Assembly: GCF_017348835.2 (NCBI RefSeq)
Contig: NZ_CP071375.1
DNA from: Escherichia coli
Lineage (GTDB): Bacteria; Pseudomonadota; Gammaproteobacteria; Enterobacterales; Enterobacteriaceae
Length of the DNA stretch: 64,000 bases
Reading direction: 5' to 3' (one strand)
The notes beneath the pieces are model-generated. The model did not search any database. It was not told where the DNA came from and worked only from the letters and a program-made list of their open reading frames with translations. Of this stretch, positions 47,401 to 53,819 are shown piece by piece (positions within the stretch are counted from its first letter, which is position 1; each line of letters opens with the position of its first letter). The position numbers were made by a program, and so were the translations under genes.

Positions 47401-47734
47401 CAAAGCTTACACTCTTTAAGCGTTCTTCTCGTGAATCGAATAAATCTTTTGATAAATCACACGCTTGTGTGAACGTCATTTTTTTTACTCGTGGTACAGC
47501 CATAGGCGAGGCCGCATTCATCACTTTGTTTTCTTCGTGATCGAGAGTAGCAGTGTAGCGAAACATGACACTTTTACCGCGCACCAACTGGTATCCTAGT
47601 CGATACGCTAACGCGTCAAGATGCGTCAGACGATTTGTTTTACGCAAGCCAGTCATAGCTTTTGGCTTACGAGTGCGCACAGAAAGGGATTTCCCTTCTC
47701 GCTTAGTCGCAAACAAAGTAACTATTTTTGACAT
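47387..47734 (-). CDS. small basic protein, putative partner/antitoxin of the downstream toxin-like gene
   Basis: 115-aa ORF from ATG (complement 47732-47734) with GGAGAT RBS; stop lies 10 bp before the downstream gene start; Lys/Arg-rich N-terminus. Confidence 0.45.
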   Translation of the reverse strand: MSKIVTLFATKREGKSLSVRTRKPKAMTGLRKTNRLTHLDALAYRLGYQLVRGKSVMFRYTATLDHEENKVMNAASPMAVPRVKKMTFTQACDLSKDLFDSREERLKSVSFDGPE

Positions 47735-48706
47735 GGTATCTCCTGACATCAATCTGCTAAGGCCATTGTGCCTTGTTTGAATAGTAAACTATTCGCCCAA
47801 TCTACACCAGTGATTTTCTTGACGCCAATAGTAAAGGCAGCATTGCCCACCACAGGCAGACAATGAGACTTCAGATAGCGCACCTTCTATCGCGCACGCG
47901 CTCAATAAAACCAACGACACCGCCATCCTGCCTGACCGATGTTTTTAACCAGCGTATACAGAGAAACAGACAACAGCATGAAATCAGCGTATATCCAGGT
48001 GCAGACGGCACTATCACACAACGCACAGCAGGCTGAGGTGAACACTCAAGCAACTTTATCCCCGCCACCGACCACCGCAAACTATCATGACCGTGCCAAA
48101 TTCAAAAGGAATGGCCCATATAACGCGATGAACACACATAAGCGCTACACTTGCTTACCTGAAAACTTCACAGCGTCACAGCGCGTTTTAGACACGTTAA
48201 AATTAATGAGATTTCATTAAATTTTCACCAGACACCGGAACAAGCCTATAAATCAAAAATGAATTACCGACATGCGCCGCTGGCGTTCACAGGAAGAATC
48301 AATAACTTAGGCCAATGGCGAAAGTTAAACAAAATCAAGAACTTGCAGAAATGCAGGATGAAGCAGCCGATGTGCCCCGTTGGATTTTACCAGAAGAATC
48401 AACAAGTTAGACTCGGTGATTTCACCGACTCCTGCCGGACTACTGACCAGATCGAACCATTCCCCAAATTTGGGGAGAGCAAACCACACGCAGATCCTGC
48501 CAGGCTATTTCATCCCACCGCATCACGTATTTGCACACTTCCCCGCTGACGTGCTCATTTTGATAACGAGTTACCCGCTAGCCCTTGCCACATCACCATT
48601 TGTCGCGCTTTGACTAAATTAGCGACGTGCCTGTTATAGCGATACGCTAGTTATGCAGAAAGCGCGACATATCCAGCAACCATGCACCCTACAGAGGAAT
48701 TGAATC

Positions 48707-49159
48707 ATGCGAGACATAGACTGGTCAGCTATCCCTTTCGATGATTTACCGCCCTGGCATCTGGACTGGGACGTAGACCAACGCGAAAACGCGACATATC
48801 CAGCAACCACCAGCATTACAGCGATGCGCCCCGTAAAGCCTAAGAAATACCAGGCAACCGACCTGATAGCTCACCTCAAAGCTATTGGCGGCGTATTTAC
48901 CGGAAGCAAAGACACGCTTGCACATGAAGTATGGCCCCGGAAGACGCCAGCGGGTCGAACCGTTTTACGCTTACTGACCGAACTGTCAGACAACGGCGAC
49001 GCTGTAGTGATTAACCGTGGTCGTTGTGGCGTGGAAGTTATTCTGACGCCGAAGAACAGGGCACAGACGCCTGAATTAAGCGCACCCAAGCAAATGCATA
49101 GCCAAAAATTAAGTCCAGCAGAACGCGTTATATCGCTTTTAAATGGCATCGGATTTTAA
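48707..49159 (+). CDS. hypothetical island protein
   Basis: 150-aa ORF with GAGGA RBS 8 nt upstream of ATG; no recognisable family. Confidence 0.5.
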   Translation: MRDIDWSAIPFDDLPPWHLDWDVDQRENATYPATTSITAMRPVKPKKYQATDLIAHLKAIGGVFTGSKDTLAHEVWPRKTPAGRTVLRLLTELSDNGDAVVINRGRCGVEVILTPKNRAQTPELSAPKQMHSQKLSPAERVISLLNGIGF

Positions 49160-49185
49160 TTAATTTTGATGTGGTAATTGCAGGC

Positions 49186-49212
49186 AAAAAAATCCCGCCG
49201 GAGAAAGCGGGG
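49186..49212 (-). terminator. rho-independent terminator oriented for minus-strand transcripts
   Basis: Minus strand reads CCCCGCtttctccgGCGGGattttttt (on plus strand the A-run precedes the hairpin). Confidence 0.55.
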
Positions 49213-49446
49213 AAGTGAAATCAATCGTTGTAGTTATAGATCACATTTTGGAGTTGAGGATGGCTAATCCTCGCTAATATTATCGCGCCGTTATGTGATG
49301 GGCGCAATTATTTCTTACTAATTAAAAGTTTTGTAAATATTACAGAATATCCCTTTTCACTATATGGTAAAAGATGTGAAACAGGGACATGAGGAATATA
49401 ATATTAAGTATCAACAGTAATGTTGGTCTTTAATTTCATTCAGGGC

Positions 49447-49489
49447 GCGGTGAGGGTTTTCTCCATATTTTTCCTCACCGCTACTTTTT
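49447..49489 (+). promoter_or_regulatory. terminator/attenuator-like hairpin in the alpA leader
   Basis: GCGGTGAGG-17 nt loop-CCTCACCGC followed by tacttttt, immediately upstream of the alpA RBS. Confidence 0.45.
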
Positions 49490-49501
49490 CGAGGTGAGAA
49501 C

Positions 49502-49693
49502 ATGAATGATAGCGAATTAATGACGGTGAACGAGGTAGCCGCTTTATTCGGCGTTACCCGTCGGACAATATTCCGGTGGATGAACAAGATTAAAGGCTGG
49601 CCCGTCCCGGTCAGTCCGATTGGCTCAAGAATTAAGTTTATCCGATCTGAGATTTTGGAATTCTATAAAAACAAAGGCGCTCGCCACCAATGA
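49502..49693 (+). CDS. alpA: AlpA-family phage/island transcriptional regulator (excision control)
   Basis: 63-aa ORF MTVNEVAALFGVTRRTIFRWMNKIKGWPVPVSPIGSRIKFIRSEILEF: typical AlpA HTH signature; RBS GAGGTGAG. Confidence 0.8.
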   Translation: MNDSELMTVNEVAALFGVTRRTIFRWMNKIKGWPVPVSPIGSRIKFIRSEILEFYKNKGARHQ

Positions 49694-49832
49694 AAACAGC
49701 TACTGAGATTATCAAATAACCTATTGATTTAAAAAGCTAGCTACCGCAATTTCTGAAGGAATAGGCAGCATGAAAATCAAAGCAAACACAATTAAAGAAA
49801 TAACATCAATCAAAGTAAAAGGAGCAGATGCC

Positions 49833-50096
49833 ATGCATTCATTAGATAGTTATTTTCAGCGCACGACAGCCCCTAAATCAGCCGCCCAGGAACGCCGTGA
49901 GGAATTCCAGGAAAAAGTGATGCGTTCTGCTGATTATATTGCGGACAAGTTCGCGGAAACGGTTCGGCCACTTGTTGATGAAGTAGCTGATAAACTTCAG
50001 TCTGAAATGCCGGAAGACATGGAAGGCACTGCAAAGGCGCGACTCCTTTTTGAATTAAGTCGTCGTTTCGGCGTGTCAATAAGCACTTTTAAATAA
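49833..50096 (+). CDS. hypothetical small acidic protein
   Basis: 87-aa ORF from ATG 49833 with AAAGGAG RBS 8 nt upstream. Confidence 0.5.
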   Translation: MHSLDSYFQRTTAPKSAAQERREEFQEKVMRSADYIADKFAETVRPLVDEVADKLQSEMPEDMEGTAKARLLFELSRRFGVSISTFK

Positions 50097-51638: not shown

Positions 51639-53819
51639 ATGAGTGGAAATCTCGGGACCATATACTACGAGGTCGATGCCCGCACTGGGAAACTTCTTAT
51701 CGCGCAACAGCAGGCGGAAGAGGCGTTCGATCGCATTGAACGAGGAGCGCGGAAGGCTGATAGCGGCGTCAAAAAGTTAAATACGCAGATGACTAAAACA
51801 TCAGCCGCAGTCAAAACCAACCTTTCCCCGGCAATCCGTAACGCATCATACCAGATCGCAGACCTTGCCACTCAATTGCAGATGGGCGGTAATGCGCTTC
51901 AGGCGTTCGCTGTGCAGGGTGCGCAGTTATTAGCTGGCTTTGGCACGATGGGCGCGGTAGCTGGCGCGGTGCTGGCTATCGCTGGCGCTATGGGTGGAAG
52001 CCTGGCACAAGGCGCTGATAGTGCAGCCGGATCGGTTGAGTATCTGGACAAGGCGATCACCAAACTGAACGAGGTCATAGCTGTAAATGAACAGGGCGTG
52101 ACGGTGATGAGTGATAGTTACGCCAGACTTTCTAAGGTTAACGCTGAAGTAGCGAAACAGATGCGGAACATGGCTGAAATTCAGGCAATTGCAGCACTGC
52201 GTGACCTGAAAGAACAGGCAAGCCAGGCACAGGGGGAAATGTCGTCATTCTGGCGCAGCTTGCAGGGTGGTAAAGCTGACGCAGCAGCAGCAGCACAGGC
52301 ACTTGATGATCTTGGAATCACAACCAACGACTACAAAGAGGCGATAGCCATACTGAACGCCAATCAGCCGGATACACAGGCGCAAATGGCAACGCTAGCT
52401 AAGTCCGTGATGTACATAGGCGAGGAATACAACCTGACAAACCAGCAAGCCTACGAGTTCATCCGAGCACTAAATAGGGCCGCGACAACGAGAACGCCGG
52501 AAGCCATGCAGGAACTATCGGGCTTCATGCAGGTATTGCTACAGGACACCGAAAACGGTAACGAGGCATTCCGTGAACTGGCTATCAAATTCGTTGATGC
52601 ACAAACCAAAGGCGCAATGCTGGAAGACCAACTAAACCGACTGAAAGGCGCTATCAGTGACGCAGCCACAGAAGCCAGAAACGCCAATTTTACCACTATG
52701 CTCAACACCGTCGCCGCACGCCTGGCAGCCATTGAGCAAGGTTGGGAGGCAGGCGTTAGGATGCAGATGAAAGCCCAGGGCTACACTGAAGAGCAGATCG
52801 ATGAATATGTGAACATGGAAACGGCGTACCGTGATGCAAAAGCCGCTTTGGACGAGAAGAATAAGGCCGACCGTGAAGCTATTGCGCTATCCAAACGCCA
52901 GGCCGCAGAAGCAGCCCGCAAGGCAAAACAGGAAGAAGCTGAAGCACAACGCAAGGCCAAACAGTTAGCCGCGCAGAAGGAGCAGGCAGGACGCTTTACG
53001 CAGCAAGTAATGACGGAATACCTGACGACCGTAGATCCGGCAACAGGCAAGGCGTTTAACCCTGCCGCACAAGTAGAAATGCAGGAGCAGCAGAAGAAAG
53101 CGGCGCTGGATAAATACAGACAGTTGGGCGTCCTGGATGAACAGCAGTACCAGAACACGCTAACCGCCATCCAGAAAACCGCGTCAATGCGCCGCCAGCA
53201 AATCATCAAAGACGAGGCCGACACGTTATTCAACAATCAGCAACAGTTGATCGGCACATTTGGCGATTTCTTCGGTGAACTGTCTGGAGTCATAGCAGAC
53301 GGTGCAGGTGAGCAAAACGCGGCATATCAAGCGCTATTTGCTGTGCAGAAGGGTTTTGTATTGGCATCAGCAGCTTTAAGCCTTCAGAAAGCGCTTGCTG
53401 AGGCAAACGCCTTGCCTTTCCCGGCTAATCTTCCGGCCTATGCGCAAGCTATGTCAGCAGGCACGCAGATCATTTCAGCTATTCGTGGAATAGCTTTCGG
53501 TGGCGGACGCTACAACGGCGGCGCGGTTGGTGCTGGCAACCTGTACCGCGTGGGTGAACACGGTAAGCCTGAGATATTCAAGGCGAACAATGGCAGCCAG
53601 TACATGATCCCAGGTGATAACGGTCGCGTGATAAGTAATCGTGACATTGGCGGCGGTGGCGGCGTAACAATCAACAGCCCGATCACCATTAACACTACGA
53701 ATGGCTTCAGTGATGAAGACTCAAGGCGTCTTGAGGAAGCGATGAAGCGCGTAGCTATGGGCGTTTGCAGGCAGGAGTCAACCAGACCGGGAGGAATGTT
53801 AGCCCCGCGCCGTCGTTAA
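51639..53819 (+). CDS. phage tail tape-measure-like protein
   Basis: 726-aa ORF: glycine/alanine-rich hydrophobic segment (LLAGFGTMGAVAGAVLAIAGAMGGSLAQGADSAAG), long A/Q/E/K-rich coiled-coil middle, C-terminal G-rich region with YRVGEHGKPE motif. Confidence 0.7.
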   Translation: MSGNLGTIYYEVDARTGKLLIAQQQAEEAFDRIERGARKADSGVKKLNTQMTKTSAAVKTNLSPAIRNASYQIADLATQLQMGGNALQAFAVQGAQLLAGFGTMGAVAGAVLAIAGAMGGSLAQGADSAAGSVEYLDKAITKLNEVIAVNEQGVTVMSDSYARLSKVNAEVAKQMRNMAEIQAIAALRDLKEQASQAQGEMSSFWRSLQGGKADAAAAAQALDDLGITTNDYKEAIAILNANQPDTQAQMATLAKSVMYIGEEYNLTNQQAYEFIRALNRAATTRTPEAMQELSGFMQVLLQDTENGNEAFRELAIKFVDAQTKGAMLEDQLNRLKGAISDAATEARNANFTTMLNTVAARLAAIEQGWEAGVRMQMKAQGYTEEQIDEYVNMETAYRDAKAALDEKNKADREAIALSKRQAAEAARKAKQEEAEAQRKAKQLAAQKEQAGRFTQQVMTEYLTTVDPATGKAFNPAAQVEMQEQQKKAALDKYRQLGVLDEQQYQNTLTAIQKTASMRRQQIIKDEADTLFNNQQQLIGTFGDFFGELSGVIADGAGEQNAAYQALFAVQKGFVLASAALSLQKALAEANALPFPANLPAYAQAMSAGTQIISAIRGIAFGGGRYNGGAVGAGNLYRVGEHGKPEIFKANNGSQYMIPGDNGRVISNRDIGGGGGVTINSPITINTTNGFSDEDSRRLEEAMKRVAMGVCRQESTRPGGMLAPRRR

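What the first reader, a model, noticed from the sequence alone, without database searches (positions are those of the whole stretch)
48662..48809. Exact 19 bp direct repeat straddling the start of the 150-aa island ORF
GCGACATATCCAGCAACCA occurs at 48664-48682 (upstream of the ATG at 48707) and again at 48791-48809 (inside the 5' coding region), with similar flanks (aaagcgcGACAT / aaaacGCGACAT), 127 bp apart. A repeat this long and exact spanning a promoter/start region suggests a DNA-binding-protein operator, iteron-like sites, or an RNA-RNA pairing element rather than chance.
Basis: seen in the sequence. Interest (0 to 1): 0.35.

Follow-up and report, generated by a model that had tools for sequence, protein, structure and literature searches.

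The report
Matched binding sites around a regulator gene
The 19-base repeat is real and is part of a conserved set of three or four matching short sites around the promoter and inside the start of a small predicted DNA-binding gene in a phage-satellite-like island. The sites most likely let that protein control its own gene, which is a known kind of regulation in a protein family nobody has described.

Summary
CGCGACATATCCAGCAACCA is exact over 20 nt (48663-48682 and 48790-48809), and 25 nt match with one mismatch, 127 bp apart.

I compared 21 related loci from E. coli genomes and metagenomes. The module has four sequence types. Within each type the upstream inverted site, the site just before the ribosome-binding site, and one site inside the ORF change together. 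Flanking sequence, including the first 26 codons, stays conserved.

In types I and II the in-ORF site is a direct copy at +79. In types III and IV it is an inverted copy at +118. Both positions encode a predicted disordered, hypervariable linker.

The ORF product has no family match but is predicted to carry a winged-helix domain. Its third helix, the usual recognition helix of this fold, also differs between site types. The sites occur nowhere else in the islands, in other E. coli genomes, or in phages.

Best reading (about 0.5): an operator set for an autoregulatory winged-helix protein, with allele-specific "immunity-like" specificity. Main rival (about 0.25): RNA-RNA pairing of the P4 CI/seqA/seqC kind, although Rfam C4 and isrK do not match. 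Iterons and chance are unlikely. This is a new member of a known kind and of moderate interest.

The parts
48521..48540 (-). Site a: CATCACGTATTTGCACACTT, a fourth upstream site of the type III sequence. It is not cognate to the window's type I sites and is probably vestigial here.
   Evidence: Read. It is kept in most relatives (A2). It matches sites b, 1 and c in type III loci, and in the type IV locus L022 it matches that locus's b and c sites. It has been lost by a-b recombination in L010, L020, L023 and L025.
48598..48611 (-). Site b: ATTTGTCGCGCTTT, an inverted copy of the 14-nt core, 47 nt upstream of copy 1.
   Evidence: (I8 93%, I12 86%). It co-varies with copy 1 across types: 6 of 16 positions change on both sides, 85.6% of cells are complementary, and 0 of 500 shuffles reach this.
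48592..48648 (+). Candidate sigma-70 promoter region between sites b and 1. Candidate one is ATCACC (48592-97), 17 nt, TAAATT (48615-20). Candidate two is TTAGCG (48619-24), 18 nt, TACGCT (48643-48). This is an inference, not a mapped promoter.
   Evidence: Own PWM scan. The hexamer blocks are conserved across types while the spacer varies (A2, A4). The -10 reads TACAAT in type II and TACGAT in L009 and L012, which keeps the TAnnnT pattern but breaks the alternative hairpin. The stricter consensus scan reports nothing here.
48658..48682 (+). Copy 1 (site 1): GAAAGCGCGACATATCCAGCAACCA, with core AAAGCGCGACATAT at 48659-48672. It lies in the 5' leader, 24 nt before the ATG. If TACGCT is the -10, it is at about +2 to +26 of the mRNA.
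48693..48709 (+). Shine-Dalgarno-like AGAGGA (48693-48698) and the start codon ATG (48707).
   Evidence: Read. The ORF is annotated at this position in NZ_CP154401.
48707..49159 (+). The 150-aa ORF (WP_001204667.1, annotated as hypothetical). It has a conserved 26-aa N-terminus, a disordered hypervariable linker (aa 24-42), and a predicted winged-helix domain (aa ~48-115, coding 48848-49051).
   Evidence: No Pfam, PHROG or NCBIfam match. The AlphaFold model shows H50-59, E63-66, H68-75, H83-96, E99-103, E109-113, with pLDDT 77-86 in that core. Foldseek hits are MarR-type, AspA and F93 winged-helix proteins at probability ~1 but E ~0.01. Alignment A3.
48785..48809 (+). Copy 2 (site 2): GAAAACGCGACATATCCAGCAACCA, inside the ORF at codons 27-35, in the disordered linker.

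Best explanation
The two 19-mers are two of three cognate sites (b inverted, 1 and 2 direct) for one sequence-specific DNA-binding protein, most likely the winged-helix product of the 150-aa ORF they surround. Sites b and 1 face each other across the ORF's own promoter region, and site 2 lies 127 bp (about 12 helical turns) downstream inside the coding sequence. The proposed mechanism is that the protein occupies b and 1, is helped by the internal site through cooperative binding or looping, and represses or tunes its own transcription, as auxiliary operators do in lac and gal. Possibly it also controls the rightward genes of this small phage-satellite-like island. Different alleles of the module carry different site sequences together with a different third (recognition-type) helix, so each allele would recognise only its own sites, an immunity-like specificity.

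Shown here: the sites, their co-variation, their restriction to this locus, and the predicted fold. Inferred: that the protein binds them, where the promoter is, and the direction of regulation.
For: 1. The repeat is far beyond chance, and there is a third, inverted core copy.

2. Across 21 loci there are four site types. Within each type, site b, site 1 and the in-ORF site share the same core, while the flanks stay conserved, including the 100 nt that code the N-terminus.

3. Sites in the same orientation are identical more strictly than inverted sites are complementary. Copies 1 and 2 match 25-27 of 27 nt in L003, L006, L015 and L027. Sites a, b and c match 16 of 16 in L022 and L012. Sites b and 1 match only 12-15 of 16 and always differ at an A/T position. 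Recognition of one sequence in either orientation predicts this pattern. A requirement for base pairing does not.

4. The in-ORF site sits at +79 in direct orientation in types I/II and at +118 in inverted orientation in types III/IV. A protein site can flip like this. A single cis-RNA structure cannot be common to both arrangements.

5. Both in-ORF positions fall in the predicted disordered, hypervariable linker (aa 24-42, pLDDT below 50). There the coding sequence is free to carry a DNA signal.

6. The ORF product is predicted to have a winged-helix DNA-binding fold. Its third helix (the usual recognition helix of this fold; that role is my inference) differs by site type: GRT(V/I)LRLL in I/II, RRTLAAML in III, RWTVAMLL in IV.

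7. L012 (III) and L009 (IV) have no differences across -190..-111, and differences pile up in b-spacer-1 and from about +250 onward, over H3, the wing and the C-terminus.

8. No other neighbouring gene tracks the site type. The upstream gene differs within a type and is shared between types (L008 and L006). The downstream gene is alpA or an HNH gene regardless of type. In L005 the module sits in a different element.

9. Conserved promoter-like hexamers lie between b and 1, and their variants keep the TAnnnT pattern rather than hairpin complementarity.

10. The core occurs nowhere else in the islands. The 34-mer is found only in the 14 E. coli genomes that carry the type I or II module, twice in each, and in no phage record.

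11. A distant relative of the protein (P0019, locus L018) also has repeated sites upstream of, inside the pre-winged-helix linker of, and at the end of its gene. One is a perfect palindrome, ATGTTCA-N12-TGAACAT.
Against: No binding was tested. The structural model is of moderate quality (mean pLDDT 66, 8-sequence alignment), and the fold matches have weak E-values (~0.01). The promoter is only a weak consensus match: 6-8 of 12 positions, not reported by the stricter scan.

The H3-to-site association rests on four types that are physically linked within about 300 bp, so co-inheritance alone could produce it. The core is not palindromic, and one small winged-helix domain would not usually read 14-16 bp.

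Site a does not co-vary in types I and II or in L009. L003 lacks site b, and L011 has a degenerate copy 2, so not every site is indispensable. The complementarity between b and 1 (and between 1 and c) with double-sided changes fits an RNA helix equally well.
Confidence: 0.5

Rival explanations
1. RNA-RNA pairing. The sites act in transcripts rather than in DNA. In types III/IV the 5' end of the mRNA (site 1) pairs with site c inside the ORF, forming a long-range clamp around the ribosome-binding site and the first 40 codons. In types I/II an upstream read-through or processed RNA carrying site b pairs with the two identical targets 1 and 2. This is analogous to satellite phage P4, where CI RNA pairs with the two repeats seqA and seqC to stop expression.
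For: Sites b and 1 are complementary in every type, with 6 positions changed on both sides and one U-A to U-G change. RNAalifold predicts the 1:c stem of 11 bp in all five type III/IV sequences, with 2 compensatory pairs and 1 G-U in type IV. The b-1 hairpin folds better than shuffles (z = -3.0, 0 of 200). RNA immunity with one complement and two direct-repeat targets is established in P4 and reported in Gram-negative PICIs (PMC4825925, PMC10111431). Promoter-like sites further upstream, at about -300 to -350, could transcribe a and b.
Against: No Rfam family matches, including C4 and isrK, even at E up to 10. No single pairing scheme fits all types, because type I/II mRNAs would carry two same-sense copies and no partner unless b is transcribed. 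The best-conserved promoter-like blocks lie between b and 1, which would put b outside the mRNA. A mismatch persists in the middle of every b:1 and 1:c duplex. In type IV the duplex is degraded to 7+3+4 bp while a, b and c stay identical 16-mers. L027 and window copy 2 carry a G-to-A change that breaks a pair with b. No plus-strand terminator is predicted downstream.
Confidence: 0.25
2. Protein-binding sites with a non-transcriptional role. The same winged-helix protein, or a helper-phage protein, binds the sites as an origin of replication, or as a packaging or partition-type recognition site of the satellite. Phage lambda's origin iterons, which lie in the linker-coding part of the O gene, are a precedent (from my own knowledge).
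For: Viral fold matches include replication initiators, RepL, replisome organisers and primase-helicase winged-helix domains, alongside regulators. PDB matches include the centromere-binding AspA. Distant relatives of the protein sit next to replication genes: DnaD_N in L016, DUF5906 in L018, and a helicase in L005. A site inside the linker-coding part of the binding protein's own gene recalls lambda ori.
Against: There is no tandem array and no regular short spacing. There are only 3-4 sites, 58-172 bp apart, in mixed orientation. The window's island has no recognisable replication gene. Sites b and 1 bracket promoter-like sequence just ahead of the ORF, which is the usual position of an operator.
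Confidence: 0.12
3. No function. The copies are leftovers of local duplications, kept alike by gene conversion or by recent common descent.
For: The repeats are recombinogenic. Sites a and b have collapsed to one copy in four loci. In L022 site a has taken the type IV sequence of b. Position 4 of copies 1 and 2 appears as G/A, G/G and A/A in different strains. L011 tolerates a degenerate copy 2, and L003 lacks b.
Against: The sites are only 14-27 nt long, which I judge (from general knowledge) too short for efficient homologous conversion. Yet three separate sites change in concert in four types whose flanks differ by 15-25%. The positions are fixed: b to 1 is 57-58 nt start to start, 1 to 2 is always 127, and 1 to c is always 172. 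The in-ORF site overrides protein coding in an otherwise conserved ORF.
Confidence: 0.08

Closest known systems
Repressor-operator immunity modules with auxiliary operators (lambdoid imm regions; lac O1/O2/O3; gal OE/OI)
   Same: There are several copies of one recognition sequence around a promoter, with one copy inside a coding sequence at an integral number of helical turns (127 bp is about 12 turns; about 168 bp in type III is about 16 turns). Different alleles carry different sites together with a different DNA-binding helix, inside conserved flanks, like heteroimmune phage alleles.
   Different: The protein has no detectable sequence relation to CI, Cro or LacI-type repressors. It is an unannotated family with a winged helix, a conserved N-terminal peptide and a disordered linker. 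The sites are non-palindromic 14-16-mers in mixed orientation. The internal site lies in the regulator's own gene and differs in position and orientation between alleles. Binding and repression are untested.
P4 CI RNA / seqA-seqC and P1/P7 c4 antisense immunity (Rfam C4, isrK)
   Same: There are one complement and two direct-repeat targets within a few hundred bases in a satellite-type island with a P4-family integrase. The elements overlap a coding region, and complement and target co-vary.
   Different: The order is complement-target-target, not target-complement-target. There is no match to the C4 or isrK models and no predicted terminator. Types III/IV have three complements and one target. 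The complement probably lies upstream of the promoter.
SaPI/PICI master repressors (Stl/Rpr)
   Same: It is a small island-encoded DNA-binding regulator placed between the integrase side and the rightward operon of a helper-dependent island. A conserved non-DNA-binding segment could receive a helper-phage signal.
   Different: It is not divergently transcribed from the operon it would control, and it has no sequence similarity to Stl or Rpr. [quoted passage not shown] This island lacks the pri-rep genes that mark PICIs.
Iteron origins (lambda ori inside gene O; plasmid Rep iterons)
   Same: A winged-helix protein has a cognate site inside the linker-coding part of its own gene.
   Different: There is no tandem array, no adjacent AT-rich unwinding region next to the sites, and no replication genes in the island.

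Membership tests
Autoregulatory repressor-operator module | A sequence-specific DNA-binding protein is encoded next to the sites | tested here: met
   A winged-helix domain is predicted for aa ~48-115. Foldseek top hits are MarR-type, AspA and F93 winged-helix DNA binders at probability ~1 but E ~0.01. This is a prediction only.
Autoregulatory repressor-operator module | The sites overlap or flank the regulated promoter | tested here: inconclusive
   Conserved but weak promoter-like hexamers lie between sites b and 1. The stricter scan reports none. No transcription start is known.
Autoregulatory repressor-operator module | The sites co-vary with the protein's recognition surface between alleles | tested here: met
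   The four site types each have a distinct H3 sequence. Differences between L012 and L009 are concentrated in the sites and the winged-helix region. The sample is small and the features are physically linked.
Autoregulatory repressor-operator module | The protein binds the sites and changes transcription | not testable with these tools
   This needs EMSA or footprinting and reporter assays.
P4 CI / P1 c4-type antisense RNA immunity | A structured RNA matches the Rfam C4 (CI/c4) or isrK (seqA) models | tested here: not met
   cmscan of 47500-50000 at E up to 10, and of the whole window at gathering thresholds, gave no such hit.
P4 CI / P1 c4-type antisense RNA immunity | One complement pairs with two repeated targets on the same transcript | tested here: inconclusive
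   Complementarity of b to sites 1 and 2 exists. However, the order differs from P4 and b may not be transcribed. Types III/IV have the reverse stoichiometry.
P4 CI / P1 c4-type antisense RNA immunity | Pairing causes premature termination in a leader | tested here: not met
   No plus-strand intrinsic terminator is predicted in 47700-49800. Rho-dependent termination is not testable here.
Iteron-type origin | There are three or more tandem direct repeats at regular short spacing beside an AT-rich region | tested here: not met
   There are only two direct copies 127 bp apart plus inverted copies. No tandem array of the repeat was seen in the repeat search of 47800-49800 or in the sequence itself; Tandem Repeats Finder was not run.
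Target-site duplication or attachment-site repeat of an inserted element | The sequence between the repeats is absent from relatives that lack the repeat | tested here: not met
   The 107 bp between the copies (RBS, ATG, first 26 codons) is the best-conserved part of the module, and it is present in type III/IV loci that lack the direct repeat.

The most novel reading that the evidence does not exclude
The sites are an RNA-based, allele-specific immunity or translation-control device unrelated in sequence to P4 CI, c4 or isrK. The extreme 5' end of the regulator's mRNA (site 1) would be captured either by a complementary segment inside its own coding region (types III/IV) or by an upstream-derived antisense segment that also targets a second copy in the coding region (types I/II). 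The four types would then be four pairing specificities.
Probability: 0.2. Interest if true: 0.6.

Novelty: new member of a known kind. Interest (0 to 1): 0.4.

Why it matters
Small integrase-plus-AlpA islands in the eutB-eutA gap of E. coli (CPZ-55-like) are barely characterised. For Gram-negative phage-inducible islands, whether a master repressor exists at all is described as unclear (PMC6092414). This module offers a concrete candidate: an unannotated winged-helix protein with its own co-varying site set in at least four specificity types. It can be tested directly with simple binding and reporter assays.

It is also a clear natural case of a DNA- or RNA-level signal written into a disordered linker-coding segment. 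That signal overrides protein conservation and even changes position and strand between alleles. If the RNA reading is right, it would add a second, unrelated family of antisense immunity in satellites.

Tried and rejected
- **Rfam.** The whole window at gathering thresholds, and 47500-50000 at E up to 10, gave nothing relevant: only tRNAs and chance-level hits.
- **Protein family libraries.** Pfam, PHROGs and NCBIfam gave no family for the ORF.
- **GTDB species representatives.** The peptide-pattern scan found one weak Chromobacterium hit only, so the family is essentially confined to E. coli. The viral-contig DNA scan gave 0 hits.
- **Exhaustive profile search.** It returned only 13 proteins, and the distant ones carry no informative domains.
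- **Partner for the 3' half of the repeat (CCAGCAACCA).** No complementary sequence beyond chance was found in the window. The extra identity of copies 1 and 2 is better explained by how the copy arose.
- **Inner hairpin (TTAGCG/CGCTAA) as the reason for the conserved blocks between b and 1.** Rejected, because types II and IV break the pairing while improving the -10 pattern.
- **Protein-level repeat, on either strand.** Rejected, because 127 is not a multiple of 3.
- **AlpA or the upstream small HTH protein as the binder.** Rejected, because those genes are swapped independently of site type.
- **Target-site duplication.** Rejected.
- **Literature.** I found no description of this island type or module. 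The P4 primary paper PMC176756 is not held.

Full report
**Observation**

The 19-mer GCGACATATCCAGCAACCA is present exactly twice in the window, at 48664-48682 and 48791-48809. There is no other match at up to 3 mismatches on either strand, and none of 100 shuffles gave two matches.

- Read from the sequence, the exact identity is 20 nt (48663-48682 / 48790-48809).
- The repeat finder extends it to 25 nt with one mismatch (48658-48682 / 48785-48809, spacing 127).
- Copy 1 ends 24 nt before the ATG at 48707. Copy 2 covers codons 27-35 of the 150-aa ORF at 48707-49159.
- Because 127 is not a multiple of three, the copies are never read in the same frame, so this is a nucleotide-level repeat.

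**A third copy**

The repeat finder also showed that 48598-48611 (ATTTGTCGCGCTTT) is the reverse complement of the first 14 nt of the repeat. It is 93% complementary to copy 1 and 86% to copy 2 (I8, I12). A search with AAAGCGCGACAWAT finds these three sites, plus two 2-mismatch hits that are within the chance expectation. A further upstream site, a (48521-40, CATCACGTATTTGCACACTT), resembles b in its flank but has a different core.

**Context**

The window matches E. coli chromosomes at 100% identity, for example NZ_CP154401 and NZ_CP100525.

- The ORF lies in a ~9.5-kb island between eutB and eutA.
- The island genes, in order, are: intZ (P4-family tyrosine integrase), a YafO-like toxin pair on the other strand, a small hypothetical gene, the 150-aa ORF, an AlpA-like HTH_17 gene, four small unknown ORFs, and a 726-aa tape-measure-like gene.
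- Relatives carry an Sf6-type small-terminase-like gene.
- This looks like a small phage satellite, but it is not one of the described families as far as I could find.

**Relatives and the four types**

I collected 21 loci from blastn against complete E. coli genomes, contig look-ups of protein relatives, and one metagenome scan with a conserved coding pattern. Alignment and site tables show four versions of the module.

| Type | Loci | Site b (read as reverse complement) | Site 1 | In-ORF site |
|---|---|---|---|---|
| I | window, L005, L011, L024, L027 | AAAGCGCGACAAAT | AAAGCGCGACATAT | site 2, direct, +79, same as 1 |
| II | L006, L015, L003 | AAATCGCGACAATT | AAAGCGCGACAAAT | site 2, direct, +79, same as 1 |
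| III | 11 loci | AAAGTGTGCAAATACG | AAAGTGTGCAATTACG | site c, inverted, +118, b-like |
| IV | L009, L022 | AAAGTGTGTGAATACG | AAAGTGTTTGGTTACG | site c, inverted, +118, same as b |

- In type II, copies 1 and 2 are identical over 27 nt.
- In types III and IV, the position of copy 2 holds only a degenerate resemblance. A new inverted site c lies 40 nt further into the ORF.
- Site c is identical to b over 12-17 nt in type III and over 16 nt in type IV.
- Spacings are fixed: b to 1 is 57-58 nt, 1 to 2 is 127, and 1 to c is 172, all start to start.
- Between the variable sites, the ribosome-binding region and the first 26 codons are highly conserved.

The pair is conserved and co-varies.

**Co-variation**

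On a 10-sequence alignment, the 16 positions pairing b with 1 are complementary in 85.6% of cells. Six positions change on both sides, and 0 of 500 shuffles reach the observed score. Sliding the partner by 1-3 columns drops pairing to 31-56%. This statistic cannot tell an RNA helix apart from one protein site present in two orientations.

**The ORF product**

- It has no Pfam, PHROG or NCBIfam match and very few relatives: 10 clusters in 5.8 billion sequences, and 13 representatives in the exhaustive search.
- The AlphaFold model (mean pLDDT 66; 77-86 over residues 50-110) gives H-E-H-H-E-E, a winged helix at about aa 48-115. The linker at aa 24-42 has pLDDT below 50.
- Foldseek places the core with MarR-type regulators, AspA and F93 at probability ~1 but E ~0.01. 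Among viral proteins it matches HTH regulators and replication-initiator domains.
- Both in-ORF site positions (codons 27-35, and 41-45 in type III) fall in the disordered linker. That linker is the only hypervariable part of the protein alignment.
- The third helix, which is the usual recognition helix in this fold (my inference), differs with site type: GRT(V/I)LRLL in I/II, RRTLAAML in III, RWTVAMLL in IV.
- L012 (III) and L009 (IV) show no differences over -190..-111, only one or two per 20 nt across the 5' part of the ORF, and differences piling up in b-spacer-1 and from about +250 onward, over H3, the wing and the C-terminus.

**Which neighbour is the partner?**

- The upstream small gene differs within a type and is shared between types: L008 (III) and L006 (II) carry the same protein.
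- The downstream gene is alpA in some loci and an HNH endonuclease in others, irrespective of type.
- In L005 the whole module (site a through the ORF) sits in a different element, after a helicase gene.

Only the ORF travels with the sites.

**Promoter**

The strict consensus scan finds nothing between b and 1. My PWM scan and the alignments show two conserved weak candidates:

- ATCACC, 17 nt, TAAATT. Here site b is the spacer.
- TTAGCG, 18 nt, TACGCT. This places site 1 at about +2 to +26.

The -10 variants TACGCT, TACGAT and TACAAT keep TAnnnT, while they destroy the alternative hairpin with TTAGCG. The blocks are therefore better read as promoter elements than as a stem. Either candidate leaves b untranscribed. 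This is inference only.

**Weighing protein against RNA**

For RNA:
- The complementarity with double-sided changes and one G-U.
- A predicted 11-bp 1:c stem in all type III/IV sequences.
- A b-1 hairpin with z = -3.0.
- The precedent of P4, where CI RNA pairs with the repeats seqA and seqC (PMC4825925), and of immunity RNAs in Gram-negative PICIs detectable with Rfam C4 and isrK (PMC10111431).

Against RNA:
- C4 and isrK do not match here.
- No pairing scheme is common to all types.
- Every duplex has a persistent internal mismatch.
- In type IV, sites a, b and c are identical 16-mers while their supposed partner, site 1, deviates at three positions, leaving a 7+3+4 bp duplex.
- G/A changes in sites 1 and 2 break pairs with b.
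- Identity among same-strand sites (25-27 of 27; 16 of 16) is stricter than complementarity (12-15 of 16).

Recognition of one sequence in either orientation explains all of these points, including the flip of the in-ORF site. The spacings, 127 bp (about 12.1 turns) and about 168 bp centre to centre in type III (about 16 turns), fit same-face cooperative binding. I do not put weight on that.

A distant relative of the protein (L018) also has repeated sites before, inside the linker of, and after its own gene. One is a perfect palindrome, which is suggestive only.

**Other readings**

- **Iterons.** Unlikely: there is no tandem array and no replication genes.
- **Target-site duplication.** Excluded, because the inter-repeat segment is the most conserved part and is present in alleles that lack the direct repeat.
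- **Purely neutral repeats homogenised by conversion.** Unlikely for 14-27-nt tracts at fixed positions in alleles whose flanks differ by 15-25%. The repeats are recombinogenic, though: a and b have collapsed to one copy in four loci.
- **Dispensability.** Not every site is indispensable. L003 lacks b, and L011 has four changes in copy 2.

**Distribution**

The 34-mer around copy 1 occurs only in the 14 E. coli genomes that carry the type I or II module, always twice in each, and in no phage record.

**Verdict**

The element is a conserved, co-varying set of 3-4 sites. It is most likely the operator set of an unannotated autoregulatory winged-helix protein with allele-specific recognition (confidence about 0.5). 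An RNA-pairing device is the main rival (about 0.25). It is a new member of a known kind, of moderate interest, and easy to test.

Noticed in passing
window 48267-48310 and 48367-48410: A 44-nt direct repeat (75% identical, 100-nt spacing) lies upstream of the module. Each copy forms the end of a short unannotated reading frame with a similar C-terminus (MRRWRSQEESIT* and ...DEAADVPRWILPEESTS*). One database protein (P0012) fuses the second frame to the ORF at the RW/PW motif.
   Followed up: partly
window 48461-48476: A perfect 16-nt palindrome, TCCCCAAATTTGGGGA, lies in the leader region upstream of site a.
   Followed up: no
window 49091-49254 (terminator 49194-49211, minus strand): The last ~70 nt of the ORF plus a strong minus-strand intrinsic terminator is the only part of the module kept, at ~84-88% identity and unannotated, in most of the 159 E. 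coli genomes that match the region. Most CPZ-55-like islands therefore seem to have lost the regulator and its sites. It is unknown which minus-strand transcript the terminator ends. The 340-nt gap before alpA is AT-rich.
   Followed up: no
window 51639-53819: A 726-aa tape-measure-like protein (phrog_1538, E 3e-103) is encoded in a ~9.5-kb island that has no other tail genes and no recognisable replication genes. Relatives also carry an Sf6-type small-terminase-like gene. This is an unusual gene set for a satellite.
   Followed up: partly
L010, L020, L023, L025 (upstream of the ORF): The 22-26-nt direct repeats a and b, 70 nt apart, have recombined into a single copy in four loci. In L022, site a has acquired the type IV sequence of b.
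   Followed up: yes
window 48707-48784 (codons 1-26): The N-terminal peptide MRDIDWSAIPFDDLPPWHLDWDVDQR is almost invariant across all four types, although it is predicted to be disordered. It may be a docking motif for a partner such as a helper-phage protein, or the nucleotides may be constrained. RNAalifold predicts a conserved hairpin there in types III/IV.
   Followed up: no
L002 (NZ_CM143725), codon 17 of the ORF: A TGG-to-TGA nonsense change truncates the N-terminus in this strain, and the annotated ORF starts later. Several database proteins (P0003, P0013, P0015, P0016) are deletion or fusion variants, so the module is decaying in some hosts.
   Followed up: partly
L018 2763-3606: A distant relative of the protein (P0019, next to a resolvase gene and a DUF5906 primase-helicase gene) has four related sites with TGTTCA/TGAACA half-sites around and inside its gene. 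From memory, these resemble the P4 type I iteron TGTTCACC.
   Followed up: no
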